DNA of 64,000 bases, taken from the IMG/VR virus record IMGVR_UViG_3300020411_000002. One strand, written 5' to 3'. Below the pieces are notes generated by a model, which made no database searches, was not told the origin of the DNA, and saw only the letters and a program-made list of their open reading frames with translations. This DNA comes from a virus (taxonomy: Duplodnaviria; Caudoviricetes). Made by a program: the position numbers and the translations under genes. Shown here one piece after another: positions 3,419-52,434 of this stretch. Position 1 is the first letter of the stretch; each line of letters begins with the position of its first letter.

Positions 3419-3763
3419 CTACCATAGATCATTCAGTGCCCAATAAGCAGCCTGAAACTTATCTTTATATGCTAGCTTACCGTCTTTTGTTTTGATGCCC
3501 ATGTGGCGCTTACGATAGTTATCTCTACGCTTTTTATCTTTATGCGTAGTATAGTCTTCGTAGTCCTTATGTCCGTACTTAACTAACTTAAACTGATTTC
3601 CTTTCTTAGCAAGCACACATCGTTTGTGTCTGCTGTCAGTAGGATTATCTATTGGTTTGTTCCAGCCGGGAAAAGTCATTCCACGATACTTTAGCTTACC
3701 GTTTTCTTTTTCTACCTTTTCTATGGGCTGGCTTGTTGCTGATAGACTTACTAGTATCTTCAT
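3419..3763 (-). CDS. Small basic protein, DUF5754-like, with N-terminal SLS motif
   Basis: YGHKDYEDYTTHKDKKRRDNYRKRH and AAYWA motifs resemble this viral family from memory; begins MKILVSLSA. Confidence 0.65.
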   Translation of the reverse strand: MKILVSLSATSQPIEKVEKENGKLKYRGMTFPGWNKPIDNPTDSRHKRCVLAKKGNQFKLVKYGHKDYEDYTTHKDKKRRDNYRKRHMGIKTKDGKLAYKDKFQAAYWALNDLW

Positions 3764-4952: not shown

Positions 4953-5396
4953 TCAGTCCTCTTGAATAGGTTCTATATATTCACCAGCAAGCTCTAGTTT
5001 AAAATTAGCTAAATCCATTTCTAGGAATTTTTTCTTTTCTTCACTAGTTGGTTGATACTTGATAGAAATGTGTGGGCTGAACTCAGGATAAGAGTGTCTA
5101 AGTTTATAGACTTTCTTTAACGCTTCGTGTCTGCGTGAAAGAGCAGGTGCGTCTAGCTTTAAAACCAATGCTTCCCACTTATCGCCAGCTTTACCGAATA
5201 CGTCTTTACCTGTTACAGTAGCTTTGAAAGTTCTGTAAGGTGCAGGGGTAAACTTGTGATGTACATCATCTTCAGGAGCGTAAATAATTGTTGCATGTAA
5301 ATCATCAATCATTCTTGTGAAGTGTGCGCGGAATAAGTTTCTCAATTGCGCTTCGCTTTCAGGTGTAAGCCTAATACCTATATAAGTTCCAATCAT
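4953..5396 (-). CDS. acb1: Acb1 / T4 gp57B-like 2H phosphoesterase (anti-CBASS)
   Basis: Two 2H motifs LHATIIY and PHISIKY, plus GTY, LVLKLD..L..RH and EY.EP at gp57B-like spacing; 147 aa. Confidence 0.85.
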   Translation of the reverse strand: MIGTYIGIRLTPESEAQLRNLFRAHFTRMIDDLHATIIYAPEDDVHHKFTPAPYRTFKATVTGKDVFGKAGDKWEALVLKLDAPALSRRHEALKKVYKLRHSYPEFSPHISIKYQPTSEEKKKFLEMDLANFKLELAGEYIEPIQED

Positions 5397-5761
5397 GATA
5401 TCTTTCCCAATGTTTTAAACTTTGCTATGTGTACTACGTGTCTTCTATCCAACGAACCAAAGCGATACGTAAGAGCAGTAGGGTTGAATCGGTCTTCAAC
5501 GCGTTTGTCTTCGTATGTATCAAACAGAATAAATTTCTTTTGTTCGTCTAATACAATCATGTGAGAAGGGTCATTACTTCCCTTGTGACTTAGTAATGCA
5601 AAATGCAAATCAGGTCTACGTCTATTCTTAAAGTAATACATACTTCCAGCGTAGCAGCTTGCCTCTGAATGAGGTATGCGTTCTCTTCCTTGTGCTATGT
5701 CTTCTAACCAAGAAATACGCTCGTGTAGAGTACGATTAGATAGAGATATTAATAACTTCAT
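5393..5761 (-). CDS. Hypothetical protein with SLS tag; possible Cys-His-Asp triad
   Basis: Begins MKLLISLSN; SCY...SHMIVLD...LFDT. Confidence 0.6.
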   Translation of the reverse strand: MKLLISLSNRTLHERISWLEDIAQGRERIPHSEASCYAGSMYYFKNRRRPDLHFALLSHKGSNDPSHMIVLDEQKKFILFDTYEDKRVEDRFNPTALTYRFGSLDRRHVVHIAKFKTLGKIS

Positions 5762-32862: not shown

Positions 32863-33546
32863 TTAAATGTCTACAACTACTATCAGATGCTTAACTTCGC
32901 CGTCCATTCGAACTGTACCAAGTTCTACATCAATGCCCGGTATCTGTTTTTCAATCTCACGTTCAAGCTCAGTAGCCCAAGAACCAAACTGACCTACTCG
33001 AAGACCGTGTTTACGTCTGTAAGAACGTAGCGTTGAAATTGCATCATAGAAATAATAAACTTCGCCCGGCAACATTTCACGCGCACGAATAAACTCAATC
33101 TTCTTCATACCATTGATACGAACATTTTTGAGTTTACGTGTTAGGTCCGTGTCTTCGCGTGGATGATTAAGCATTGTAACAGATACAGGAGTAGCACCGG
33201 CACCTTTGCTAGGATTAAGAGAGTTATCTTTATCCATTCCAGCAGGGGCGCCCCGTAAGCTGTCTTTAATAGACTTACCATCTACTTTACCACGATGCGA
33301 TTTAGACCGTTTAAGAATGTTCATTGCTTCACGTTCAGTAAGCTTGAACTTTGTATCGAGCGAGAATTCTTCTATCAGATAGTAATTGCCTCGTGGGGCA
33401 GGCATCAATCCATAAACATCACCACTAGCTAGTTCTAAATCATATTTTGGATTGTGGTCTAGAAACTTAGCAGGGCGTTTACCCATGAACTTATACCAAG
33501 CGCACTTTTTAACGTCAATTGGTTTAGCTGATAGACTAATAAGCAT
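32863..33546 (-). CDS. SLS-tagged putative head protein
   Basis: Likely start ATG 33546 (MLISLSAKP), not 33684; shares a W-initiated domain with 46850..47803 and 57534..59315. Confidence 0.65.
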   Translation of the reverse strand: MLISLSAKPIDVKKCAWYKFMGKRPAKFLDHNPKYDLELASGDVYGLMPAPRGNYYLIEEFSLDTKFKLTEREAMNILKRSKSHRGKVDGKSIKDSLRGAPAGMDKDNSLNPSKGAGATPVSVTMLNHPREDTDLTRKLKNVRINGMKKIEFIRAREMLPGEVYYFYDAISTLRSYRRKHGLRVGQFGSWATELEREIEKQIPGIDVELGTVRMDGEVKHLIVVVDI

Positions 33547-33547
33547 A

Positions 33548-33919
33548 TTAATTTCTTCTTGTCTTAGGCTTTGGAATCTTTTGAAGCATTGCTTTTTTGC
33601 GCTTGTAGTCCATATATAGTTTACGAACTTCAATACGTGCTTCTGACTTTTCTTGCGAAGATGCGCGGTTTCTGCCGACACCACGAATGATATCTAAGCG
33701 GCGGATAATCTGTGAACGCAGGTTACGAACTTCACGCGTCATCTTACTGTGACGATCTTGCTTCTGCATACGTTTACGACGAGGGCCTCTACGTCTTGGA
33801 GCGCGAAACACGGCACGACGACGGTCAGTAATATTAACTCCTAAGTCAGAGTAATCTACTGAATCAGACTCAACCTCATTTGCTGGAACTAAATCACCAG
33901 CTAACATTACTAGCTTCAT
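33548..33919 (-). CDS. Arg-rich protamine-like putative core protein with acidic leader
   Basis: NEVESDSVDYSD leader, then RRRAVFRAPRRRGPRRKR...; GGAG RBS. Confidence 0.6.
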   Translation of the reverse strand: MKLVMLAGDLVPANEVESDSVDYSDLGVNITDRRRAVFRAPRRRGPRRKRMQKQDRHSKMTREVRNLRSQIIRRLDIIRGVGRNRASSQEKSEARIEVRKLYMDYKRKKAMLQKIPKPKTRRN

Positions 33920-37725: not shown

Positions 37726-38808
37726 TTATACTCGTTGACCTTTTGCTACAGAGCGAACGTTTGCAAGAACGAACGAGAACGTTTCAGCAATTAACCAACC
37801 TTTGTCAGTTGCGCCTTGGTTCGCACCATCAGTAGGAGTAGAACGTACACCGCGAGTAGTGTAAACGCCGTGGTTTTCAGGAGAAGATACAACGTAGATT
37901 TCGCCTTTATCAAGAACGCGTTGGTTCTGAGCGCGGAAACCGTCAGTCATAAGTTCTAGTCCAACTAGTGTACCGATTTTACCGTTAACAACTAGGTCGA
38001 ACTTGCTTACTGGATCAAGGAATGAGCTGAACTCAGGGTTACCGATAATGTCTTTCCAGAAGTCATTAGAGATAATCGCTTTGTTAGCAGACAAGTTCCA
38101 GTCAGTAACCTGTTCTTGCATTGACGCAAGCATCTTAGGTGTAAGTTCACCAGAGATATAAGTAAGATCGTTTGCACGACCTACAGTGCGGTCAGCAGCG
38201 CGTTTCCAGATACGGTCTTCGCCAGTCATGATAGCTTCCATAGCTTGATCGCGAATGTCGCGAAGCAGGTCGCCAGATGATTGGTCAAGTTCCATTTGAG
38301 ATACGCGAACGTTTGACTTAACTTCGTATTCAGATGGACGGAACTGACGATCACGAATCAGTTGATAACCCATTTGAGTTGGTGAAGTTGAGATAACCGC
38401 TTGCACTTCGTGGCGTGGCATATAAACGTTAGGGAATTCACCTTGACGTAGAGTTTTACCAACCGCTAAGTTACGCATAAAGCCAGCGCGTGAAGCTTGC
38501 TCAGAAATTTCGTCAGCTACAGCAGCACCCAGTGCAGCCCAGTCTTCAAGAGAAGCGTTAGCTTGTGCAACTAGCTCCGCTTCTTGACGAGAGATTTCTT
38601 CTGATGGAACATGTTCTTGCTTGATTTCGCCAGAAGCCGACATGCTCATGATCGTACTAATAGCTTCTAGTAGCTCGCCTTTATCGTGCGCGTTAATTTC
38701 GCCGTTAGAAGAAAGAGCAGATAAGCCGGAACCCGGCAGTTTCAAAGCTTCGATAGGATCGCCGTTCGCCAGTACATGACGGAAGTTACGTGCGTTAGAT
38801 TTGTTCAT
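37726..38808 (-). CDS. Major capsid protein (HK97 fold likely)
   Basis: 360 aa after scaffold and decoration genes; E-loop/backbone-helix pattern (AIMTGEDRIW), GKIGTLVGLELMTD; GGAG RBS and downstream terminator. Confidence 0.85.
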   Translation of the reverse strand: MNKSNARNFRHVLANGDPIEALKLPGSGLSALSSNGEINAHDKGELLEAISTIMSMSASGEIKQEHVPSEEISRQEAELVAQANASLEDWAALGAAVADEISEQASRAGFMRNLAVGKTLRQGEFPNVYMPRHEVQAVISTSPTQMGYQLIRDRQFRPSEYEVKSNVRVSQMELDQSSGDLLRDIRDQAMEAIMTGEDRIWKRAADRTVGRANDLTYISGELTPKMLASMQEQVTDWNLSANKAIISNDFWKDIIGNPEFSSFLDPVSKFDLVVNGKIGTLVGLELMTDGFRAQNQRVLDKGEIYVVSSPENHGVYTTRGVRSTPTDGANQGATDKGWLIAETFSFVLANVRSVAKGQRV

Positions 38809-38849: not shown

Positions 38850-39557
38850 TTAAATAACTGATTCCAGTACTAGGAAAGCAGAAGAACTGGTTGGTGCTTC
38901 TGACACAACCCAGTTGGTTAATACGGTTCCGTCACCGCCAACAGTAAGATTACCATCAGCGCCAAGGCTTGGATGTACTGCGCTAGCCCAATCAACAGTT
39001 ACGTCGAAGTTTGAGATAGTAAGCTTAGTTGCAGTAATAACGCGACCAACGATACCCATTTCAGCAGAAGGGTTACCACCGATAGGACCTTCACCATGAA
39101 TAAGACGAGATTCAGCAACAGTAGGCTCGTAAGTAGATTGTACTTTAACTGCTTTGCCTTTGTCAGCATCGTTGAAGTAAAGAGTATCACCGTCAACAGC
39201 AACTTCACCGGCATTAGCAGGAGCAGAAGAACCAACAGACACTTTAGAAGAGTCAACAGCAGTACCGTCTAGGAAGATAGCGAAGTTGCTTTGATCAAGT
39301 TTTTGACCAGCAACAAATTTACCTTGGTCAGACACTGTGCCTTCAGTGATGAAAGGAAGCATACCAGGTGGCATTGCGCGGCTGATTGAGAAACCAGCGA
39401 AAACTTCTGAGTCATCAGCACCAGTAGAAAGACCAAGCTTAGTCTTACCGTCGTGCTTTTTGAATACAAGAGCCATACCTTCATCAGTGATAGGCTCGCC
39501 TGGAACGTAGTCACCTTCGGAAGTTTTTACGAACAAAGTATTTGCGTAATTAATCAT
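38850..39557 (-). CDS. Capsid decoration / cement protein (putative)
   Basis: 235 aa beta-rich ORF directly upstream of the MCP. Confidence 0.55.
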   Translation of the reverse strand: MINYANTLFVKTSEGDYVPGEPITDEGMALVFKKHDGKTKLGLSTGADDSEVFAGFSISRAMPPGMLPFITEGTVSDQGKFVAGQKLDQSNFAIFLDGTAVDSSKVSVGSSAPANAGEVAVDGDTLYFNDADKGKAVKVQSTYEPTVAESRLIHGEGPIGGNPSAEMGIVGRVITATKLTISNFDVTVDWASAVHPSLGADGNLTVGGDGTVLTNWVVSEAPTSSSAFLVLESVI

Positions 39558-41754: not shown

Positions 41755-41783
41755 AAAAAAGCCCCGAATTAACGAGGCTTTTT
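41755..41783 (-). terminator. Intrinsic terminator
   Basis: Minus strand AAAGCCTCG-TTAATT-CGGGGCTTT followed by further T residues. Confidence 0.85.
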
Positions 41784-41800
41784 CCGTACTAAGAACAAAA

Positions 41801-42355
41801 TTAATCGTGAAAGAAAATAGCAGCTTTAGAACCATTTCTATCGAATACGTTTATATGGATACGTCCCGCATTTGGTAAAACGCCTTCATACGTAGTACCC
41901 GCTACACCGTCCATACGTTTAGACTTTAGATTCGATCCTATCTTAGTTAAGAGTTTTGAAACTGCATTTTTAGTTACGTTAGTACTATAACCTTTATTGC
42001 CTTGAACATCATGTCTTTTTAAAGGAGATCCTTTAATCTTATGTTCTTTCAAAAAACTATTAGCTCTTTTGTCAGAGGACTCAGATGAAGAGCTACCTCC
42101 GCTACTGTTTTCTTCAATATCAGAAAGTGCATCTTGTACCGTAGATTTATCTTTGAATATAAGATTCATGAACTTTTTAAGAGAATCTTTATCTCCATAC
42201 GTGTTCATTCTTTCTTCGTTGAAATCTGGATCGCGACCTGCGAACTCTAACTTAACACCTGCTTGATTTGCCATATCTAACAAATCTTCGGCAGTAGTTC
42301 CGTAGTCATCTTCCATGTGTGTAAGTTTGCCGTTTTTGACCGTAGCGTCTATCAA
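41801..42355 (-). CDS. Hypothetical domain, possibly translated as a -1 frameshift extension of 42430..43587
   Basis: Only a TTG start without RBS; frame is open upstream through the slippery site at 42439. Confidence 0.6.
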   Translation of the reverse strand: MIDATVKNGKLTHMEDDYGTTAEDLLDMANQAGVKLEFAGRDPDFNEERMNTYGDKDSLKKFMNLIFKDKSTVQDALSDIEENSSGGSSSSESSDKRANSFLKEHKIKGSPLKRHDVQGNKGYSTNVTKNAVSKLLTKIGSNLKSKRMDGVAGTTYEGVLPNAGRIHINVFDRNGSKAAIFFHD

Positions 42356-42429
42356 AGTTTCGTACTTATGAGAAGCATTCTTTATGTCTGCTTTTGTCGC
42401 ATAAGCTCCGCTCGATTTTTTCGGCTTAC

Positions 42430-43587
42430 TTACTTTTTTGCAGCAGTTTCCTTCTTAGCTGGTGCAGCTTTAGTCGCTGGTGCAGGTACGTCTTCAGGCT
42501 TCTTGTACTTAAAGCCTAAGTCTTTGATTTTATCCATTAGAGCTTTTTGCTCTTTCAAGATTTTATCTTTAGCCGCAGGAGTCTTAGCATTCGCCAAACG
42601 CGCTGTACGAGTAGCTAACTGTTTGAATAACGGATTAGCTTTCTTCATTACTTCTGGATCTTTCAGAAGCTTTGCATTACCGCCGCGTGGTGCTTTAGCT
42701 GGGGCTTTAGCAGGAGTCTTCGCTGTAGGCTTCTTACCACCTTTCTCACGAGCAGTAGCGTCTTTGATTGCGTTTTCCATTTTCTCAACGTATTCAGGAC
42801 GCAACTTACGATTCATCGCTTTAGCTTTCATCTTGAAGAACTTGAATTCTTCTTTTAGATCTTCACTGCCACGTTTATGTGCGTTAGCGCCTGGGCGACG
42901 GAAGTTACTTGGAGTCTTTGGTACACCCGGAGAGTTAGGACCTAACTTCTTACCAGCAGGTGCTTTAGCTGGGGTCTTACCAGTTTGCTTTGGATCTTTG
43001 TTTGCATTCTTATCGCCGCCAGTGATTACACTAAAGATACGACGAGCAGACATACGCGGACCGAGATACTGACGAGTAAGACGACCACCATTTGCAGGCT
43101 GCTTAAATACATGCCAACCTGGGGCAATCATGTTTGGTGCGCGTTTCTTACGACCCATTTGAACACCAGCACCTTGACCGCCAGTACCTTTCTTAGGTTG
43201 TGCAGAAAGCATTTCAAGAGTACCCATATCGATAACGGTATCTTCCATTGCTTCTGCTTCGATAGAAAGATCCATTTCGTCTTCATGATAATCTTCTGTA
43301 CCGTAGAACGGAGTTGAAGAAATAGATTCCATATCACGCAATGCAAAAATCTTTTGCTTCATTGAAGGCATGTACTTAACTTCTTTTGCAACGCGAAGTA
43401 GTACAATAGTTTCTTTCTTGGTTTTAAGAACGTAACGCCCAGGCTGCTTGTGTACAATACGCGGAGCAGGACGAATTTGCTTTAAAGCATCTTGTAAAGT
43501 CTTTGGAACTTCAACAGCCTTTTTGGCAGGTTTTTTACCACCAGCACGAGGTGCGCTTAGAGATTCAAACGTAATATTAATAGACAT
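42430..43587 (-). CDS. Basic histone-H1-like putative head protein with SLS tag
   Basis: MSINITFESLSA; KTPAKAPA twice; K/A/P-rich C-terminal half. Confidence 0.65.
   Translation of the reverse strand: MSINITFESLSAPRAGGKKPAKKAVEVPKTLQDALKQIRPAPRIVHKQPGRYVLKTKKETIVLLRVAKEVKYMPSMKQKIFALRDMESISSTPFYGTEDYHEDEMDLSIEAEAMEDTVIDMGTLEMLSAQPKKGTGGQGAGVQMGRKKRAPNMIAPGWHVFKQPANGGRLTRQYLGPRMSARRIFSVITGGDKNANKDPKQTGKTPAKAPAGKKLGPNSPGVPKTPSNFRRPGANAHKRGSEDLKEEFKFFKMKAKAMNRKLRPEYVEKMENAIKDATAREKGGKKPTAKTPAKAPAKAPRGGNAKLLKDPEVMKKANPLFKQLATRTARLANAKTPAAKDKILKEQKALMDKIKDLGFKYKKPEDVPAPATKAAPAKKETAAKK
42433..42439 (-). promoter_or_regulatory. Candidate -1 frameshift heptamer A AAA AAG
   Basis: In-frame GCA AAA AAG TAA; AAGGA 9 nt upstream; the -1 frame is open for 210 codons downstream. 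Confidence 0.55.
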
Positions 43588-43651: not shown

Positions 43652-44182
43652 TTAACCAAATCGCGTTCCAACAAATTTACCATTCCTATAAAGAGGTTTA
43701 GAAGCTTTTGGATCAAGCATACCAAGCTGAAATTCTTTGGTAGCATATTCACCACCACCAGGAGCGTGGTAATCTAAAAGGAATTTAAGAACGTTATCCT
43801 TTGAGCCGTGTACAGAAATCACCGAATCGCCACCAGGACCATAACCTGAATCCCAATTCTCAAAGCGGAAACTTACTTTGAATTTGTTAAATATGTCTAA
43901 CTGCTCTTCAAGTTCAATCAATGCGCTATCGTAAGCTTCTTGGTCATCAGCAGAATCAGGCAAAGTTATAGGTCTAGCTACTTTAAACTGTGAGCCCGTA
44001 AGATTTTCTATTGCAGATAACACATCGCCTATTGGCTGCACAACTAAGATAGTAGAATGGGCTTCACCTCCAGCAGTACCTGTATTACCAATTAGCTTTT
44101 GTGCTTGTGCAAGTTTACGTGCAACTCTCTTATAAGTGGAAGATCTTGCGCTAATGCTAGACAAGTTGATTGTTATATTCAT
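43652..44182 (-). CDS. SxS-tagged putative head protein
   Basis: MNITINLSSISAR; GPGGDSVISVHGSKDNVLKFL module. Confidence 0.65.
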   Translation of the reverse strand: MNITINLSSISARSSTYKRVARKLAQAQKLIGNTGTAGGEAHSTILVVQPIGDVLSAIENLTGSQFKVARPITLPDSADDQEAYDSALIELEEQLDIFNKFKVSFRFENWDSGYGPGGDSVISVHGSKDNVLKFLLDYHAPGGGEYATKEFQLGMLDPKASKPLYRNGKFVGTRFG

Positions 44183-44190
44183 AAAGTTTC

Positions 44191-44667
44191 CTATATAGTT
44201 TCGTACAGACGTTTGAGACCGTTCATCTTGCCGGGATAGCCTTTACGTTGCAACAAGTTAAAGAAGTCTACGGGTTTCATTTCATGTAACGGGTTGCTAT
44301 CTCTAGCTGTACCGCGCGGATGAATGTAGTCTTTAACGAAATCATCAAATTCGATTTCGTATTCTACACTGTCTTCAACAAACTCTAAGAACTGGGCCCA
44401 AAGTTTATCTTCGTCAGCAGTGTTTAGGTCTACAAGTTCGTATCTATCTACGTCACGCGCCGGTAGCTCTTTAGGATAAGCTAGTATGCCGTGTCTGTAG
44501 TTACGTGAATCACGAATACCAGCAAAGCGTTTATCTTTTGCAGCATTCTCTGCATCAATAAATTCTACTGGCTGTGGATTAGTAGGTTGAGCGCCGATTG
44601 AATATGGACGGAATTTCAATCCATAGTAAAACTTCTGCGGCGCGCTTAATGAGATAAAGATTTCCAT
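44191..44667 (-). CDS. DarA C-terminal-like domain protein (defence against restriction), SLS-tagged
   Basis: YYGLKFRPYSIGAQP...RHGILAYPKELP..DVDRYEL matches the DarA_C signature as recalled. Confidence 0.7.
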   Translation of the reverse strand: MEIFISLSAPQKFYYGLKFRPYSIGAQPTNPQPVEFIDAENAAKDKRFAGIRDSRNYRHGILAYPKELPARDVDRYELVDLNTADEDKLWAQFLEFVEDSVEYEIEFDDFVKDYIHPRGTARDSNPLHEMKPVDFFNLLQRKGYPGKMNGLKRLYETI

Positions 44668-46388
44668 TATACGTCTTTGCCTTCTTCTGCAAGCTTAACC
44701 ATCTTCTCAATAGTTACAGGCATACGGGTTTCCAGTTTGCTGTAGTAGTCTTTCAAGATAAGAGGGTCAATGTAGTTAGCAATAGCTGTAGCTACTGTAA
44801 GTTTACCATTAGCAAAGTGACCAAGGTCTTTAGCTACTTTAAGAAGTGCTTTCTTCAACCATTCGTTAACCTGCTTAGCATCAGGCTTACGCTGTCTTTC
44901 GTAAAGAGGGCACTTATCAATAATACTCTTTGCTAAACGCGTTCCACGTAAAGTACGGAATTTGTGAACTGTTACTTTTGGAGGCATACCTATTTCACGT
45001 AGATACTTGTTAACTACGTTTGCAGATATTGGACGACCGTTAAAAGTAATTAGTCTGTCTTTACGTACTTTAGGTTTGCGTTTTCCTTTTTCCAAAATGT
45101 TATCTTTGGCTAAAGTATCTAACATTTCAATCAAAAGGCGTTGATTGGGATTAGAAGTAACAAGTCTATGTCTTTGCTCTTGGCTCTTCTTGCCTGGATA
45201 CTTCAACTCACGATTGCTACCCTTCTTGTAGTAGTGTCCCACTTGAAGAGTAGTAATACCGTATGTAGGCTTACCATCAGTAGAGTTACTAGCACCACCG
45301 ATTCGTCCGTAAGTCTGGTATACTAACTCGCACACACCAGCAATAACACCAGTACGAGTAGTAATGCCTTCAGATTTGAAAGTGTCTAACCAACGCTTAC
45401 GAATACCATTTGCTTTCTTATCGAATACAGCAACAGCCGCAAACTTCTCTGCAACACCAGCAGCTTTGTGTTCAACAGTGTATATGTTTGACCAGCCTTG
45501 AGCCATAGGTGCTTTAGTCTGACAAACGTATCCATCGTCTTTCTTTGGATTGTAATTCGGATTCATCTGTACTTCACCGACAGGCGTACCATTTAGCATC
45601 TTGCCTTGTACAGTGTAGTACTTCATCTTATCGTCAATGTATCCAACGAAGCCTTCTGGAATTGGGTGTCTGCGAATACCAGCAGCTTTGATTTCGTCTA
45701 TAACAGTGCGTACACCAAGATAAGGTTTACCGCTTTGTCTAACGAGATTCATTACAAAGTTTTTGGGAATTGCATTAAGCTCACGCTTTAGACGATTGTA
45801 TTCTTTTAGCTTTGCAGTGTCTTTGTATTTCTTACGGGTGTCAGCATCAATGTCGATATCCAAACCACCCATAGAAGATGTAAGACGTTTAAGCTTTGTT
45901 TCTAATTCGTCTTGATCACCTAACTCAACCGAGAAGTGTCGAGCAATAGATGTATCGTTTAAATCAGACACAAGCACTGTAAGCTTGTCTAAGGCATTTT
46001 TTCTAGTAGTCTCGTCTTTACTGTTTACCACAGTATTGAACTTACGAATGACTTCTAGTTGCGCCCTTGAAACCGCATGTTCATTTGCGATAGATTCTTT
46101 CATTGCTTGGCGAATAGAGTATGAAAGATTAGTAGCGAGTTGCAACATATTCTCGCTGTCCCATATTAGGTACCCATCTTTCAAATATTCAACTAGCTCT
46201 TCAAATGATTCTTCATCTATATCAAAGGCGTGAACGAATTTGATTGCATTACTATACCAATCATCTAGATTAGCATAAACGTCGAGGGGCATTTTAAACC
46301 CCTCTTGTTCTGAGAACGCTACCATTGCTAAGATTTTTACAAAGCTATTAGCAACAGCAGGATTTACTCTGGAAAGTGATATTAACAT
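44667..46388 (-). CDS. DNA topoisomerase IB (bacterial/poxviral type) with N-terminal extension
   Basis: Catalytic set present: GRIG (Arg), ITTL..GH, YPGK (Lys), HKFRT (Arg), LGH (His), NYIDP (Tyr); begins MLISLSR. Confidence 0.85.
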   Translation of the reverse strand: MLISLSRVNPAVANSFVKILAMVAFSEQEGFKMPLDVYANLDDWYSNAIKFVHAFDIDEESFEELVEYLKDGYLIWDSENMLQLATNLSYSIRQAMKESIANEHAVSRAQLEVIRKFNTVVNSKDETTRKNALDKLTVLVSDLNDTSIARHFSVELGDQDELETKLKRLTSSMGGLDIDIDADTRKKYKDTAKLKEYNRLKRELNAIPKNFVMNLVRQSGKPYLGVRTVIDEIKAAGIRRHPIPEGFVGYIDDKMKYYTVQGKMLNGTPVGEVQMNPNYNPKKDDGYVCQTKAPMAQGWSNIYTVEHKAAGVAEKFAAVAVFDKKANGIRKRWLDTFKSEGITTRTGVIAGVCELVYQTYGRIGGASNSTDGKPTYGITTLQVGHYYKKGSNRELKYPGKKSQEQRHRLVTSNPNQRLLIEMLDTLAKDNILEKGKRKPKVRKDRLITFNGRPISANVVNKYLREIGMPPKVTVHKFRTLRGTRLAKSIIDKCPLYERQRKPDAKQVNEWLKKALLKVAKDLGHFANGKLTVATAIANYIDPLILKDYYSKLETRMPVTIEKMVKLAEEGKDV

Positions 46389-47815: not shown

Positions 47816-48427
47816 CTATATATAATCCACATAAGCGCCATTTCCAGTTTGAGAGCTATATACTCTTGCAACTTGTTCAGCTTGTTTCTTAGTGCCTGGG
47901 TACTGCATAAGCTTAGTACCGTTATGATTATACGCCATGTAACCGGAAGTTCTTTTCACTACGTTTTCTTCTCGCATGAAGTCAAGAGAGTCAAGGTCAT
48001 TAGAATCTGGTTCTCTTTTTCTAGAAATTCTATCAACTCGTTCTCTTCTAATAGAACGAAGAGTTTCAATATCTTTTGGCGGTTGTTTTTTACCTGTAGA
48101 AGAATTTGTCTGATAACCTTTAAGCGGCTTAATAAGCTTCAATGCTGCAATGATTGTAGGAAACTGTTTAGCAACTGACAGCTTTTTAACAGCGCTCTTC
48201 ACGTTAATGCTGGCTTTAGCATTGGCAAACTTTTCTACGCGCTCAGGATCAGCAGATTTTAAGAATCCTAAGAGCGCATCGAGACCTGCAGTATCTACAA
48301 GCTTTTCTTTGCTGTAAGTTTCAAGAATAGGAATTACTTTCTTTGCGCTCTTGCCGAAAAGTATTTCAGCGTTTGCCATTTGTTTTTTAGTAGCAGATTC
48401 GCTACGAATGTTTAAGTTAATTTTCAT
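47816..48427 (-). CDS. SxS-tagged basic putative head protein
   Basis: MKINLNIRSESA. Confidence 0.65.
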   Translation of the reverse strand: MKINLNIRSESATKKQMANAEILFGKSAKKVIPILETYSKEKLVDTAGLDALLGFLKSADPERVEKFANAKASINVKSAVKKLSVAKQFPTIIAALKLIKPLKGYQTNSSTGKKQPPKDIETLRSIRRERVDRISRKREPDSNDLDSLDFMREENVVKRTSGYMAYNHNGTKLMQYPGTKKQAEQVARVYSSQTGNGAYVDYI

Positions 48428-48495: not shown

Positions 48496-48930
48496 TTAGG
48501 CAAATTTCTTTAGCTTAGCATTGATTGCTTTCAAATCTCTTTTTGCATCACCGCTAGGTTTGATATCGATAGTCTCATCCCCACCTCGCATTATATTGTA
48601 AGCTACGATAGAGATTAAGTACCCATCAGAGCGAGGAAGAGAATAGTTGGCATCGCGTACATCAGACTTTTCAGGATAGCTAGAAATAGTTACAGAATAA
48701 TTACCTACCGTTTTAGCCAAGTAGTTAGCTTCTTCAAAGTCCCAACCATCCTTTAATAGAGATTGAGTAAGTTCAGGTAATTTACTCACTGGAAGAGAAT
48801 TCCCGGTCGGTCTGTTAGGACTGTACGCTCTGTCGTAAGTATACGTGCCATTATACATTGTACCTCGTGCGTCTTCTGAATAGCCTTTAGAGGTTGCAGA
48901 CATTGATTGTAAATTGATAGTAAGTTGCAT
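48496..48930 (-). CDS. SxS-tagged putative head protein
   Basis: MQLTINLQSMSA; AGGA RBS. Confidence 0.65.
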   Translation of the reverse strand: MQLTINLQSMSATSKGYSEDARGTMYNGTYTYDRAYSPNRPTGNSLPVSKLPELTQSLLKDGWDFEEANYLAKTVGNYSVTISSYPEKSDVRDANYSLPRSDGYLISIVAYNIMRGGDETIDIKPSGDAKRDLKAINAKLKKFA

Positions 48931-49573: not shown

Positions 49574-50374
49574 TTAACGCATAATACTCATTACTTGGTC
49601 TGGATTATGGTGATTAGCAACGTAAGCTGGATCTTCTACCGCGCTATTCTCAAACCCTGTAATGTTGTGTAAGTAACGATAGACCAGACGATTGTTTTCT
49701 AAGTATGTAGGTTTATTAACTACAGTGTGAGAACAAACACGGCGTAAGTTTTCTTTATATACCGTATGACCGCAGAACGCACAAGTATAAGCTTGATACC
49801 ACATACCAATGCTGTAAGTATTCAAGTCGTGGGTAAGAATACGATTAGCAAGCACAGGGTCTTTAGTTCTATCGAATGCAAGCAACTGAATGATACGTGC
49901 ATGATTACCTATAAAGTTAGGCATAGATTTCATGTACACATCTAAGATAACACCTTTAGCTTTGGTAATATCTTTGTTGTCGTGTTCTTGGTGAGTAGGT
50001 TTACCTTTCCAAGTTTTATAAGCTAACATTCCCAAGTCTGGACGGAAACGCAATGCTTCGGCAGTAGATAGACAGTCACCATTTGTGTTTGGTATATCTG
50101 TAATAACCGCAGGAACAGGCACCATTACGTAGTCACGCAAGTTAGGACTGATTTGATAATGCTCAGCAGCCATAGGTAGCCAAGCGTTTGCATCGATATC
50201 AATATTATCAGAAGCACCAGTAATACTAGGCTTTAGTGTCACGCGATTAGACTTACCAACATCTTTTAGTTCAGTAGGTTGTGCGGCAATATTTCTTTGA
50301 GAGATATCAAACGAAGAACTCATAAAGCTATTTTCTTCATTTGGTATCATTACGTTTTCTAAATCAATCTTCAT
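49574..50374 (-). CDS. Prohead maturation protease (HK97/herpes-like clan) with Cys-rich insertion
   Basis: N.NGD, EHDN (His), YSIG, GFENSAVEDPA (Ser motif); CAFC...CSH insert. Confidence 0.8.
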   Translation of the reverse strand: MKIDLENVMIPNEENSFMSSSFDISQRNIAAQPTELKDVGKSNRVTLKPSITGASDNIDIDANAWLPMAAEHYQISPNLRDYVMVPVPAVITDIPNTNGDCLSTAEALRFRPDLGMLAYKTWKGKPTHQEHDNKDITKAKGVILDVYMKSMPNFIGNHARIIQLLAFDRTKDPVLANRILTHDLNTYSIGMWYQAYTCAFCGHTVYKENLRRVCSHTVVNKPTYLENNRLVYRYLHNITGFENSAVEDPAYVANHHNPDQVMSIMR

Positions 50375-50377
50375 GAC

Positions 50378-51019
50378 CTACCTCGTAAAACATATATCGT
50401 TAGAGTGAATCGAATAGATTCCTTTGCTTACTTTGTGACTTCTTGCATCACCTACATCAGCATCGGAGCAGTATCTACAATACGCTTTCACAATATGCTC
50501 GTTAGGTTTTTTAATACGCTTTGCTTCGAATACGCTTTGGTAAACAAGGCGTGAGTTGTTTCTACCGTTGTCATCTGCAATGTAGTAGCCGACAACTTCT
50601 TCAAATTCTGGAAGTTGAAGAACAAGCTTTTCCAGTCTAGCAATGAAAGAGCGAATAGGCTGAATGCCGTCCATAGAGAATCTACTTAAAGCAGTGTTAA
50701 CTTTCTTAATAGACTCAGTAATGTTATACAGACCTTTTTCGTCTAACTCACTAGGAAAGCGGATAAGTCCTTTGTACAAGAAGTTTAATTCCGCTGCAAG
50801 AGTTCTAAATGTTTCTTGGTCAACAATATCCATACGGCGTTTGGTATGCGTACCGTCATTGAACTTTTGTTGGGTTTGCTTATCAACAATCTTTATTAAA
50901 GATGCTGTTTTACGAATAGCCCAAGGAAGAATAAAACTATTAGCTAGCTTTCTATATGGGTATTCTCGGTCATTAGTTACGTTTAGCTTTATATTGTCAA
51001 AGCTTGGTAAGTTACTCAT
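50378..51019 (-). CDS. Hypothetical protein
   Basis: 213-aa coupled ORF. Confidence 0.65.
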   Translation of the reverse strand: MSNLPSFDNIKLNVTNDREYPYRKLANSFILPWAIRKTASLIKIVDKQTQQKFNDGTHTKRRMDIVDQETFRTLAAELNFLYKGLIRFPSELDEKGLYNITESIKKVNTALSRFSMDGIQPIRSFIARLEKLVLQLPEFEEVVGYYIADDNGRNNSRLVYQSVFEAKRIKKPNEHIVKAYCRYCSDADVGDARSHKVSKGIYSIHSNDICFTR

Positions 51020-52434
51020 AGGTAATCCTTATTCAAGTTATGCTTTATCCAGAGTTTGCATTCATCATACGTCTGACGTATTGGATTGAATAAAACAACT
51101 CGATTAGATTTTACGATTGTGTAAGGCTTGGTGTCTTGTCTACCAGTATGAAAAGAAGATTCTGAAAACCCTTCATAGAGCTTAGCTTTCCAACTACGGC
51201 GACTCTTACCATTGCCTTCAATTTCAGGGTCAGACTCGATACAGCCAATAATACGATTATCGAACATAACGTCAAAGCGTGTTCGCTCTTTAGAATCTAG
51301 ACGTTTTTGTTTAGGACATACTCGAAAAGAAATACGAGGAGTAACGGCTGAATCAGATTCTAGTCCGTCTATTGTGTCAAGCTCTAAAGGAACTTGTTCT
51401 TCCTCAGGCTCTTCTTCCATTTCTTTCTCTAGCTCTTCCTCAGTAGGCAAAAAGCCCTCTTCAATCATTTCTTGAATGGCTTGAATTTTGGCAATCTTTA
51501 CTGATAGTGCCTCTAAGTCCAAGTCTTTAAACCAATCAGAAAACAAATTAATGAAAGTTTCTAAAGTGTCCTTAACTTCAGGCGGCTCATAGTCTTCGTC
51601 TTCGTCTTCTGGCTCTTCTTCCTCAGAAACCTCGTCAGCCATTTCGTCTATATCATCTTCATTCGATAGAGATACAAACCTTTTGGATGCAAGGGAATCT
51701 AGAAATAATTCAAGCTCTGTTTTGTAGTCGTTAACGCTGGTGGATTTGCGGGCAGCACTTACACTACTTAAACCGTTACCATCCATGTAGCGTTTAATTT
51801 CTTTATAGTTGGTAGGACCCAAGAAAGCACCAAGTACAGTATCGACTAAACGATTGCTGGTCTTAGACAATCCTTTTTGACCTACAATGTTTTCAGTAAT
51901 AGACTTTAGAACTTGCGTAGCTAACTTAGCGCCTTCCATTTCTTCTTTAGGTGCACCTTTAGCTTTGAACTTACCTTGCGCGAAAGTCTTGGTAAATGAT
52001 AGGAAGTTTTTATTTCCTTGGGGCGAGAACTTGTTAGCTACTACGTCTTTGATACGCGGTATGTTACGTCTAAACTTGGAATAGTTTTCTTGTATATCTT
52101 GTTTGACTGAATACTTGTTTTGAAAAACGCGCTCGTCAATAGCTCTGTCCGTAATAGCCTGTTTAGCTCTGGCTCGTCTACTTAACTTAACGGGTTCTTT
52201 TACTTCTGGCTTTGATGGTAGCGCAGGTTTTGCTTGCTTTCTTTCTGCCTTAGGAAGCTGAATTTCTTTACGCTTAGCTTTAGAAGAATTATCCAGTGAT
52301 AGAGTTCCAGCCCTAACACCTTGTGCATACTTGCTCTTTGGATGCGCTTCAATATAAGCTTTGCGAGTAGCTGGCGAAGCTTTCTTCCACCAGCCTGCTT
52401 CTTCGGCAGATAAACTAGTTATGCCATAATCCAT
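51016..52434 (-). CDS. SLS-tagged putative head protein with basic N half and acidic C half
   Basis: MDYGITSLSA; internal FVSLSN and LESDSA; WWKKAS...YIEAHPKSKY. Confidence 0.65.
   Translation of the reverse strand: MDYGITSLSAEEAGWWKKASPATRKAYIEAHPKSKYAQGVRAGTLSLDNSSKAKRKEIQLPKAERKQAKPALPSKPEVKEPVKLSRRARAKQAITDRAIDERVFQNKYSVKQDIQENYSKFRRNIPRIKDVVANKFSPQGNKNFLSFTKTFAQGKFKAKGAPKEEMEGAKLATQVLKSITENIVGQKGLSKTSNRLVDTVLGAFLGPTNYKEIKRYMDGNGLSSVSAARKSTSVNDYKTELELFLDSLASKRFVSLSNEDDIDEMADEVSEEEEPEDEDEDYEPPEVKDTLETFINLFSDWFKDLDLEALSVKIAKIQAIQEMIEEGFLPTEEELEKEMEEEPEEEQVPLELDTIDGLESDSAVTPRISFRVCPKQKRLDSKERTRFDVMFDNRIIGCIESDPEIEGNGKSRRSWKAKLYEGFSESSFHTGRQDTKPYTIVKSNRVVLFNPIRQTYDECKLWIKHNLNKDYL

What the first reader, a model, noticed from the sequence alone, without database searches (positions are those of the whole stretch)
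41801..43587. Candidate programmed -1 frameshift fusing the H1-like protein to an ORF with no good start
Seen: the 385-aa ORF ends GCA AAA AAG TAA, placing A AAA AAG (42439-42433) in frame. AAGGA lies 9 nt upstream and a modest hairpin (TAAGC...GCTTA with CCG/CGG) starts 4 nt downstream. The -1 frame has no stop from the heptamer to 41801 and reads KKVSKPKKSSGAYATKADIKNASHKYETLIDATV..., a Lys-rich linker that matches the upstream protein. The downstream ORF has only an RBS-less TTG. Known: A AAA AAG with an upstream SD is the dnaX/IS-type -1 signal. Inference: 385-aa and about 595-aa isoforms. Phage frameshifts are best known in tail chaperones, so one in a putative core protein would be unusual.
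Basis: partly seen in the sequence, partly recalled or inferred. Interest (0 to 1): 0.72.

Follow-up and report, generated by a model that had tools for sequence, protein, structure and literature searches.

The report
Conserved -1 frameshift in jumbo-phage head gene
A gene in the head-gene block of an uncultured NCTB-like jumbo phage is split at the classic slippery sequence A AAA AAG followed by a stop, and the same 20-base junction recurs in every close relative, so it is very likely a programmed -1 frameshift that makes a short and a long form of one protein.

Summary
ORF1 (42430-43587, minus strand, 385 aa) ends GCA AAA AAG TAA. The -1 frame is open from just before the heptamer to 41801 (212 codons), which would give a 594-aa fusion.

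Phage NCTB and two other distant relatives encode both parts in one frame, so this is one gene. Twelve loci from close relatives, from independent assemblies (ENA, Logan, NCBI, JGI), all keep the same 20-nt core AAAAAAGTAAGTAAGCCGAA. It occurs once per gene, behind six different upstream sequences and in front of three different downstream modules. This excludes a sequencing indel.

The -1 ORFs are under purifying selection (dN/dS 0.20-0.25). The predicted first domain starts upstream of the only possible starts (TTG, ATG), and both lack a ribosome-binding site. A Shine-Dalgarno-like element lies 8-13 nt upstream in five of the six upstream sequences. This is the only in-phase A AAA AAR in about 20,000 codons of the window.

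The proposed 3' hairpin is no better than shuffled sequence and is not conserved.

The mechanism is a known type (dnaX/IS3-like). The gene family, and a frameshift junction that travels among shuffled C-terminal modules, are new. Protein function is unknown. The scan noted the same site once before, on an overlapping window of this genome, and not on other DNA.

The parts
42430..43587 (-). ORF1, the 'body' (385 aa, zero frame). It has an N-terminal leader MSINITFESLSA, a beta-rich domain (about residues 27-82 plus 150-190), an acidic insert, K/A/P-rich disordered tracts, a helical region (240-356) and a disordered Lys-rich tail that holds the shift site.
   Evidence: AF2 mean pLDDT 58. Homologues.
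42449..42453 (-). Shine-Dalgarno-like AAGGA, 9 nt 5' of the heptamer; candidate 5' stimulator.
   Evidence: Duplex with the anti-SD is -5.7 kcal/mol, which about 6% of 20-nt windows in these genes reach. Five of six distinct upstream contexts in relatives reach -5.7 or better.
42433..42439 (-). Slippery heptamer A AAA AAG in the zero-frame phase.
42420..42439 (-). Conserved junction core AAAAAAGTAAGTAAGCCGAA: the heptamer, TAA in the zero frame (42432-42430) and TAA in the +1 frame (42428-42426). Only the -1 frame stays open, reading K K V S K P K.
   Evidence: Identical in the window and in L002-L013, behind six upstream and before three downstream contexts.
41801..42439 (-). The -1 frame ORF from the heptamer to the stop (212 codons), reached only by a shift from ORF1.
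   Evidence: dN/dS 0.25 against L013.
42125..42412 (-). Module A: the first alpha/beta domain of the extension (residues 10-105). Its first helix and three strands (residues 16-42) lie upstream of ATG 42316 and span TTG 42355.
   Evidence: pLDDT about 80-85. In-frame copies of the same module occur in L002, L009 and L013.
41804..42076 (-). C-terminal alpha/beta domain ending IFFHD (residues 122-212). It is 64% identical to the C-terminus of the 591-aa NCTB protein.
41755..41784 (-). Intrinsic terminator hairpin plus U-run, directly after the -1 ORF. ORF1 and the extension therefore share one transcript.
   Evidence: -19.1 kcal/mol, z = -4.8. No terminator or promoter match lies between the two ORFs on this strand.
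42402..42432 (-). It is present but not significant and not conserved.

Best explanation
ORF1 and the downstream -1 ORF are one gene in the head-morphogenesis block of an NCTB-like jumbo myovirus. Most ribosomes stop at the TAA right after A AAA AAG and make the 385-aa body. A fraction slips back one base on the two Lys codons. The likely aids are the slowly decoded adjacent stop codon and an SD-like element 9 nt upstream pairing with 16S rRNA. These ribosomes continue as ...ETAAKK-VSKPKK... into two small alpha/beta domains and give a 594-aa isoform. Shown here: the signal; its conservation as a 20-nt junction across rearranged relatives; selection on the -1 ORF; the lack of an independent start; and co-transcription. 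Inferred: that the shift is ribosomal, its efficiency, and its purpose. The proposed purpose is a fixed minority of body molecules carrying exchangeable C-terminal modules, possibly into the capsid.
For: (1) The signal: an in-phase A AAA AAG, then TAA in the zero frame and TAA in the +1 frame, with the -1 frame open for 212 codons.
(2) It is one gene: NCTB (591 aa), P0013 (596 aa), P0016 (534 aa) and L014 join the body and the IFFHD domain in frame.
(3) It is not an assembly error: the same 20-nt core is in L002-L013, which come from ENA MEGAHIT and SPAdes contigs, Logan runs from five SRA accession series, two NCBI assemblies and a JGI contig.
(4) It occurs once per gene at varying positions. 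The architectures are body|FS|A-IFFHD, body|FS|B-IFFHD, body-B|FS|A-IFFHD, body-C|FS|A-IFFHD, body-D|FS|A-IFFHD, body424|FS|A-IFFHD, body430|FS|D-A'-X and body|FS|D-A-IFFHD-extra. The other linkers in the same genes are in frame.
(5) The -1 ORFs are under purifying selection. dN/dS is 0.20 for L013 against L009 over 244 codons (dS 0.68). It is 0.25 for the window against L013 over 212 codons. It is 0.12 for codons 12-41, which lie upstream of the ATG.
(6) There is no independent start: TTG and ATG have SD energies of -1.0 and -1.7 kcal/mol against a gene median of -5.3. The AF2 domain begins at residue 10-16, upstream of both.
(7) An SD-like element of -5.7 kcal/mol or better lies 8-13 nt upstream in 5 of 6 distinct upstream contexts, against about 6% of background windows.
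(8) The in-phase slippery pattern is avoided elsewhere. AAA-first Lys pairs after an A number 1 of 20 (the junction itself), against 23 of 62 after another base; Fisher p = 0.005, or 0.0009 without the junction.
(9) A terminator follows the -1 ORF, not ORF1.
(10) A AAA AAG is among the most shift-prone heptamers in E. coli and is under-represented there (PMC4066793, PMC5009743).
Against: There is no significant or conserved 3' stem-loop or pseudoknot (z from -0.73 to +1.08 in five contexts). In E. coli the best X XXA AAG heptamers give only about 0.3% shifting without stimulators, and up to about 3.7% in the best 3' context (PMC4066793), so the long form may be rare. The junction is seen only in one fairly shallow clade (body nucleotide identity 85-96%), and the junction with module A is nearly identical in most members, so part of the 'conservation' could be recent spread by recombination. 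Distant relatives do without it. The host and its tRNA-Lys set are unknown. No peptide, reporter or ribosome-profiling data exist. In the module-D context an ATG lies 15 codons after the junction, so internal initiation cannot be excluded there.
Confidence: 0.68

Rival explanations
1. Transcriptional slippage: RNA polymerase adds one A in the A6 run, so a fraction of mRNAs encodes the same in-frame fusion (AAKKVSKPKK).
For: The product would be identical, and all the comparative evidence fits equally well. The simplest origin of the junction is loss of one A from an A7 run that encoded A-K-K-V-S-K-P (sequence). Whether this phage uses a polymerase of its own was not examined, so slippage properties could differ from the host enzyme's.
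Against: The run is only six A. Bacterial slippage sites in use generally have 8-9 or more identical bases (own knowledge; A7/U7 runs are discussed in PMC4066793). The run sits exactly in X XXY YYZ phase and is followed at once by a stop, and SD-like elements lie upstream. None of these features matters for RNA polymerase.
Confidence: 0.1
2. Two separate genes: the downstream ORF is translated on its own from ATG 42316, TTG 42355 or a non-canonical codon, as gene callers annotate it (171 aa).
For: Gene callers on all relatives call a 171-aa or similar product. Purifying selection only shows that the ORF is translated, not how.
Against: Both candidate starts lack an SD. They would remove the first helix and three strands of a confidently predicted domain. 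The 41 codons upstream of the ATG are conserved at protein level and are part of in-frame polypeptides in L002, L009 and L013. Distant relatives have a single fused gene.
Confidence: 0.1
3. A fixed inactivating 1-nt deletion: the C-terminal part is a decaying remnant, or is rescued only by adventitious low-level slippage ('compensatory' frameshifting).
For: The junction can be derived by a single deletion in an A7 run. The heptamer alone is expected to give only about 0.3-4% shifting in E. coli (PMC4066793). No strong 3' stimulator is present.
Against: The -1 ORFs of 212-429 codons have no stops or frame-breaking indels, at dS up to 0.68 and dN/dS 0.20. New modules keep being combined downstream of the junction. 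The junction is kept while neighbouring linkers in the same genes are in frame.
Confidence: 0.07
4. DNA-level phase variation: the A-run switches between A6 and A7 in the phage population, turning the extension off and on.
For: Homopolymer runs are classic contingency loci (own knowledge).
Against: The window and all 12 fetched loci carry A6. No in-frame close relative was found among proteins of 211-674 aa or among proteins of 325-1035 aa with the IFFHD domain, although those searches are word-based and limited by length.
Confidence: 0.05

Closest known systems
E. coli dnaX tau/gamma -1 frameshift
   Same: Identical heptamer A AAA AAG. An SD-like element about 10 nt upstream acts as 5' stimulator. 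Two products in a set ratio come from one gene (PMC5009743; own knowledge for the SD spacing).
   Different: In dnaX the -1 frame stops almost at once, so the shifted product is the short one, and a strong 3' stem-loop is essential. Here the zero frame stops, the -1 frame adds 212-429 residues, and no 3' structure is detectable. The in-frame linkers of relatives L002, L003 and L005 do have the dnaX layout (heptamer, then a -1 stop after one codon).
IS3-family (IS911, IS3, IS150) OrfA/OrfAB -1 frameshift
   Same: A AAA AAG lies near the end of the upstream ORF. The shifted product is a fusion of the upstream protein with the downstream ORF, which has no efficient start of its own. IS911 also uses an upstream SD (PMC4066793).
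   Different: Those are transposases with a 3' stem-loop or pseudoknot. This is a phage head-block gene with no 3' structure, and its stop codon directly abuts the heptamer.
C-terminally extended phage structural proteins made by frameshifting (T7 gene 10A/10B; Listeria phages A118, A500 and PSA; major tail proteins of SPP1 and TP901-1)
   Same: A minority of a virion protein receives an extra C-terminal domain through a shift at the 3' end of the gene (own knowledge; TP901-1 is discussed in PMC4493119).
   Different: The gene family is different (no homology found) and so are the slippery sequences. In those phages the extension is a fixed domain, not a set of shuffled modules.
Tail assembly chaperone G/GT frameshift (lambda-like)
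   Same: A conserved -1 frameshift in a phage late operon that gives short and long isoforms.
   Different: G/GT lies between the tail tube gene and the tape measure gene. This gene lies between the head maturation protease and the major head protein. There is no sequence relation.
Retroviral / Ty Gag and Gag-Pol
   Same: The logic only: an abundant structural protein and a rare frameshift fusion that could carry extra domains into the particle.
   Different: This is an analogy, not homology. Packaging of this protein has not been shown.

Membership tests
Programmed -1 ribosomal frameshift site, dnaX/IS3 type | X XXY YYZ slippery heptamer in zero-frame phase inside the 0/-1 overlap | tested here: met
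   A AAA AAG at 42439-42433. The overlap window is only about 27 nt.
Programmed -1 ribosomal frameshift site, dnaX/IS3 type | Long -1 ORF without its own start codon and RBS | tested here: met
   212 codons. The first TTG is at codon 29 and the first ATG at codon 42, with SD energies of -1.0 and -1.7 kcal/mol against a gene median of -5.3.
Programmed -1 ribosomal frameshift site, dnaX/IS3 type | Heptamer and frame offset conserved in homologues | tested here: met
   The same 20-nt core is present in 12 loci with 8 architectures. It is limited to the close clade; distant relatives are fused in frame.
Programmed -1 ribosomal frameshift site, dnaX/IS3 type | Downstream frame under protein-coding selection | tested here: met
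   dN/dS is 0.20-0.25 over 212-244 codons and 0.12 in the part upstream of the ATG.
Programmed -1 ribosomal frameshift site, dnaX/IS3 type | 5' Shine-Dalgarno-like stimulator about 10 nt upstream | tested here: met
   AAGGA lies 9 nt upstream. Five of six independent upstream contexts reach -5.7 kcal/mol or better, against 6% of background windows. Its function was not tested.
Programmed -1 ribosomal frameshift site, dnaX/IS3 type | 3' stem-loop or pseudoknot stimulator | tested here: not met
   MFE z-scores run from -0.73 to +1.08 in five contexts, and the sequence after the core differs between contexts. Pseudoknots were not modelled. The adjacent stop codon may take this role (the 'shifty stop' of Weiss et al. 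1987, listed among the references of PMC5009743).
Programmed -1 ribosomal frameshift site, dnaX/IS3 type | Trans-frame protein and measurable shift efficiency | not testable with these tools
   Needs mass spectrometry, reporter assays or ribosome profiling.
Transcriptional slippage site | Homopolymer run long enough for RNA polymerase slippage (usually 8-9 or more) | tested here: not met
   The run is A6 in the window and in all 12 loci. The threshold comes from general knowledge.
Linker histone H1 | Winged-helix globular domain (Pfam Linker_histone) | tested here: not met
   No Pfam family at E <= 0.01. The AF2 model shows a beta-rich domain, helices and disordered K/A/P tracts. The resemblance is in composition only.
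Tail assembly chaperone G/GT | Position between the tail tube gene and the tape measure gene | tested here: not met
   The gene lies between the head maturation protease (49574-50374) and the major head protein (37726-38808).

The most novel reading that the evidence does not exclude
The 20-nt junction is a portable recoding cassette. It moves with recombination among interchangeable C-terminal modules of a packaged jumbo-phage head protein. It sets, Gag/Gag-Pol fashion, how many body molecules carry cargo domains. The in-frame linkers carry the same heptamer with an immediate -1 stop (KKA*, KKD*), so that one gene yields a ladder of nested isoforms: body, body+module and body+modules.
Probability: 0.25. 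Interest if true: 0.78.

Novelty: new member of a known kind. Interest (0 to 1): 0.56.

Why it matters
Well-supported frameshift sites in phages outside the tail-chaperone genes are few, and none is described for this jumbo-phage group (Lu11/PaBG/NCTB 'Lupandier' phages; PMC7412058 reports none). Gene callers split this gene in every assembly, so the long isoform is missing from all annotations. The family also shows how a recoding signal can persist while the domains on both sides of it are exchanged, and it offers a compact natural cassette (heptamer plus two offset stops, with no RNA structure) for studying stop-assisted -1 slippage. If the protein is packaged, the site would control the dose of variable modules delivered with the DNA.

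Tried and rejected
- Pfam and PHROGs on ORF1 and the extension found nothing.
- A profile of the body against PDB sequences gave only noise. The ESM Atlas gave no usable hit.
- Fold searches were uninformative. For the extension model (PDB, AFDB clusters, BFVD), the only real match was the NCTB homologue itself; the rest were weak small alpha/beta domains of uncharacterised phage proteins and KH-like topologies. For the body model (AFDB clusters, VIA wide), only a generic helical hairpin matched.
- IMG/VR scans with the extension protein and with the junction pattern found nothing. The GTDB genome-contig scan found nothing. No whole genome is held for the window.
- The 3' hairpin as a stimulator is rejected.
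- A second 'in-phase' heptamer at 33598 lies in a spurious GTG-start extension. The real gene starts at ATG 33546, so the heptamer is out of phase.
- The consensus terminator scan missed the terminator after the extension. Folding found it.
- The search for an in-frame close relative found none. Those searches are word-based and length-limited, and they also failed to list the L013 product, so absence is not proven.
- A 'ladder' reading, in which every linker is a shift site, is only partly borne out. The D-A linkers of L009 and L013 lack an in-phase heptamer.
Full report
**Observation.** On the minus strand, ORF1 (42430-43587, 385 aa) ends GCA AAA AAG TAA.
- The heptamer A AAA AAG (42439-42433) is in X XXY YYZ phase.
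- AAGGA (42453-42449) lies 9 nt upstream.
- The -1 frame opens six codons before the heptamer and stays open to 41803-41801. It reads KKVSKPKKSSGAY... for 212 codons and ends IFFHD. The fusion would be 594 aa.
- The sequence after the heptamer, TAAGTAAG, places a TAA in the zero frame and another in the +1 frame, so only the -1 frame continues.
- The first start codons in the -1 frame are TTG 42355 (codon 29) and ATG 42316 (codon 42). Their anti-SD duplex energies are -1.0 and -1.7 kcal/mol. The median for 53 ATG-start genes of the window is -5.3.
- A strong hairpin followed by a U-run (-19.1 kcal/mol, z = -4.8) sits right after the -1 ORF. The pattern scan lists no terminator-like or promoter-like site on this strand between the two ORFs.

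**Setting.** The window comes from an uncultured jumbo myovirus.
- Its only relative among deposited phages is Phage NCTB (LT598654, 257.9 kb). More distant similarity reaches the Erwinia Y3, Dickeya and Pseudomonas Lu11 group. PMC7412058 calls these the 'Lupandier' group.
- The gene lies in the head block. Neighbouring genes are the head maturation protease (49574-50374), the major head protein (37726-38808), a virion structural protein (38850-39557), a 656-aa acidic protein (phrog_20988), a DarA_C-like protein and a type IB topoisomerase-like protein.
- An N-terminal motif of the form M-x-I-x-I/L...S-x-S-A recurs in ten or more ORFs of the window, including ORF1 (MSINITFESLSA). Earlier first-reader notes of this scan read it as a head-loading or protease leader. 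I confirmed only that it recurs.

**It is one gene.** NCTB has a single 591-aa ORF (P0002).
- Its N-terminal motifs match ORF1 (42-48% identity in two blocks, E 1e-23 and 9e-21). Its last 92 residues match the end of the -1 ORF (64% identity, E 1e-37).
- Three more distant relatives (P0013 of 596 aa, P0016 of 534 aa, and L014 from IMG/VR) are also continuous.

**The split is real and conserved.** Proteins 86-99% identical to ORF1 are longer in frame (424-546 aa), carry different C-terminal modules, and all end in ...KK followed by a stop. I fetched their contigs and one JGI contig.
- The 20-nt core AAAAAAGTAAGTAAGCCGAA is present once in every gene, always with the heptamer in phase and a long ORF in the -1 frame.
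- The architectures are as follows (FS marks the junction):

| Locus | Architecture |
|---|---|
| window | body385, FS, A-IFFHD |
| L011/L012 (NCBI) | body385, FS, B-IFFHD |
| L002 | body-B, FS, A-IFFHD |
| L003/L005 | body-C, FS, A-IFFHD |
| L004 | body-D, FS, A-IFFHD (with a second in-phase heptamer 18 nt upstream) |
| L006-L008 | body424, FS, A-IFFHD |
| L009/L010 | body430, FS, D-A'-X (349 codons) |
| L013 (JGI, 242.5-kb contig) | body385, FS, D-A-IFFHD-extra (429 codons) |

- The core therefore follows six different upstream sequences and precedes three different module starts.
- The assemblies come from different pipelines and samples, so an assembly or homopolymer error is excluded.
- Other linkers in the same genes are in frame (AAA AAG CCT AGT GCG CCG, reading KKPSAP).
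- The junction peptide VSKPKK resembles in-frame linkers of the family (ASKPAKK). The simplest origin of the junction is loss of one A from an A7 run that encoded A-K-K-V-S-K-P. This is an inference from the sequence.

**The -1 ORF is translated, and from upstream.**
- Nei-Gojobori estimates:

| Comparison | Codons | dN/dS |
|---|---|---|
| L013 vs L009 -1 ORFs (both behind a junction; dS 0.68) | 244 | 0.20 |
| window vs L013 | 212 | 0.25 |
| window codons 12-41 (upstream of the ATG) vs L013 | 30 | 0.12 |

- None of the -1 ORFs has a stop or a frame-breaking indel.
- Among the near-identical copies of module A, nine sites vary. Six are synonymous in the -1 frame, against one in the zero frame and none in the +1 frame. 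All three variable sites between the heptamer and the TTG are third-position changes. Two of them co-occur in one lineage, and one matches a paralogous copy, so these are weak on their own.
- AlphaFold2 on a 7-sequence alignment gives two alpha/beta domains (residues 10-105 and 122-212) joined by a disordered Ser-rich linker, with mean pLDDT 78. The first helix and three strands (residues 16-42) lie upstream of the ATG.
- The same residues are part of continuous polypeptides where module A follows another module in frame (L009, L013) or is duplicated (L002).

**Stimulators.**
- Five of the six distinct upstream contexts carry an SD-like element (AAGGA, GGAGGT, TAAGGA, AGAGG, AGAGGA) 8-13 nt before the heptamer, with duplex energy of -5.7 kcal/mol or better. 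Only about 6% of 20-nt windows in the same Lys-rich genes reach that value. The contexts are not fully independent, because two of the body ends are related.
- No 3' structure is supported. The sequence beyond the core also differs between module contexts.
- The stop codon directly after the heptamer is the likely 3' element. This is the 'shifty stop' described by Weiss et al. 1987, a paper listed among the references of PMC5009743.

**Avoidance elsewhere.** The window's genes hold about 20,250 codons and 82 Lys-Lys pairs.
- The junction is the only in-phase A AAA AAR.
- AAA-first pairs after an A number 1 of 20, against 23 of 62 after another base (Fisher p = 0.005, or 0.0009 without the junction).
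- A first census had listed a second site at 33598. It lies in a false GTG-start extension of a gene that really starts at ATG 33546.
- E. coli shows the same under-representation, and A AAA AAG is among its most shift-prone heptamers (PMC4066793, PMC5009743).

**Caveats.**
- Without stimulators the best X XXA AAG heptamers shift only about 0.3% in E. coli, and up to about 3.7% in the best 3' context (PMC4066793). The long form may therefore be a minor product.
- The junction is confined to one clade (body nucleotide identity 85-96%, dS 0.18-0.46). Module A together with the junction is about 99% identical in most members, so recombination could have spread one cassette recently.
- Against that, the L013/L009 pair has diverged (dS 0.68) behind the same junction.
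- The host is unknown, and the window encodes no tRNA.

**Function.** It is unknown.
- Neither ORF matches Pfam or PHROGs.
- Fold searches returned only the NCTB homologue and weak, non-specific hits.
- The body model (mean pLDDT 58) has a beta-rich domain, an acidic disordered insert, K/A/P-rich disordered tracts and a helical region. The shift site sits in the disordered Lys-rich tail, that is, at a domain boundary.
- 'H1-like' is compositional only.
- The C-terminal modules (A, B, C, D) share a strand-(H/Y)G-x-K-D-x-L-K-K-F motif.
- The free-standing 176-aa gene at 43652-44182 is 30% identical to module C (E 1e-11).

**Verdict.** The most likely reading is a programmed -1 ribosomal frameshift of the dnaX/IS3 kind, in a new gene family and with a junction that persists through module shuffling (confidence about 0.68). 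The rivals are:
- transcriptional slippage giving the same product (0.10);
- independent initiation of the downstream ORF (0.10);
- a tolerated inactivating deletion (0.07);
- DNA phase variation (0.05).

The site is a new member of a known kind and of moderate interest. The scan had flagged the same site once before, on an overlapping window of this genome, and not on other DNA.

Noticed in passing
window 3419-3763, 5393-5761, 32863-33546, 42430-43587, 43652-44182, 44191-44667, 44667-46388, 47816-48427, 48496-48930, 51016-52434 (all minus strand): A shared N-terminal motif (M-x-I/L-x-I/L...S-x-S-A, for example MKILVSLSA, MEIFISLSA, MNITINLSSISA, MLISLSA) recurs on at least ten ORFs, mostly in the head block next to the maturation protease. 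A similar S-x-S-A motif is conserved inside the body (EMLSA in the window, ESDSAAP in distant homologues). It may be a head-targeting or protease-cleavage signal.
   Followed up: partly
L002:5420-5440, L003:6145-6165, L005 (same site); L009 about 4570: In relatives the in-frame body-module linker keeps the same SD-like element and an in-phase A AAA AAG. There the -1 frame stops after one codon (KKA*, or KKD* in L009). This is the dnaX layout, and it would yield a body-only product like the window's ORF1.
   Followed up: partly
L004:4020-4052: Two in-phase A AAA AAG heptamers lie 18 nt apart at the end of the zero-frame ORF. Both lead into the same open -1 frame.
   Followed up: no
window 43652-44182 (-): This 176-aa gene with its own leader is 30% identical (E 1e-11) to C-terminal module C of relatives (P0004). 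It is present in the window and in L004 but absent in L002, L003, L006 and L011. Modules of this family therefore exist both fused and free-standing.
   Followed up: partly
window 32863-33919 (-): The listed 273-aa GTG-start ORF overlaps the 123-aa ORF by 137 nt. Its likely true start is ATG 33546, one base after the upstream stop, which gives the N-terminus MLISLSAKP. The pair lies between the putative tail tube gene and the long 908-aa ORF, where tail chaperone genes usually sit. No in-phase slippery heptamer was found in the upstream ORF.
   Followed up: partly
window 44667-46388 (-): A 573-aa protein with a eukaryotic-type topoisomerase I catalytic core (Pfam Topoisom_I, E 3.9e-16) lies among head genes and begins MLISLSR. 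A DarA_C-like protein (44191-44667) follows it directly.
   Followed up: no
L001:3304-6273 (Phage NCTB): NCTB has two adjacent paralogues of the body gene (394 aa and 591 aa). Only the second ends in the IFFHD domain. The window's clade has one body gene plus the frameshift.
   Followed up: no
window 42317-43072 (+): A 251-aa antisense ORF lies opposite the Lys-rich body gene. It is Phe/Leu/Ala-rich and is most likely a by-product of AAG/AAA/GCN codon bias rather than a gene.
   Followed up: no
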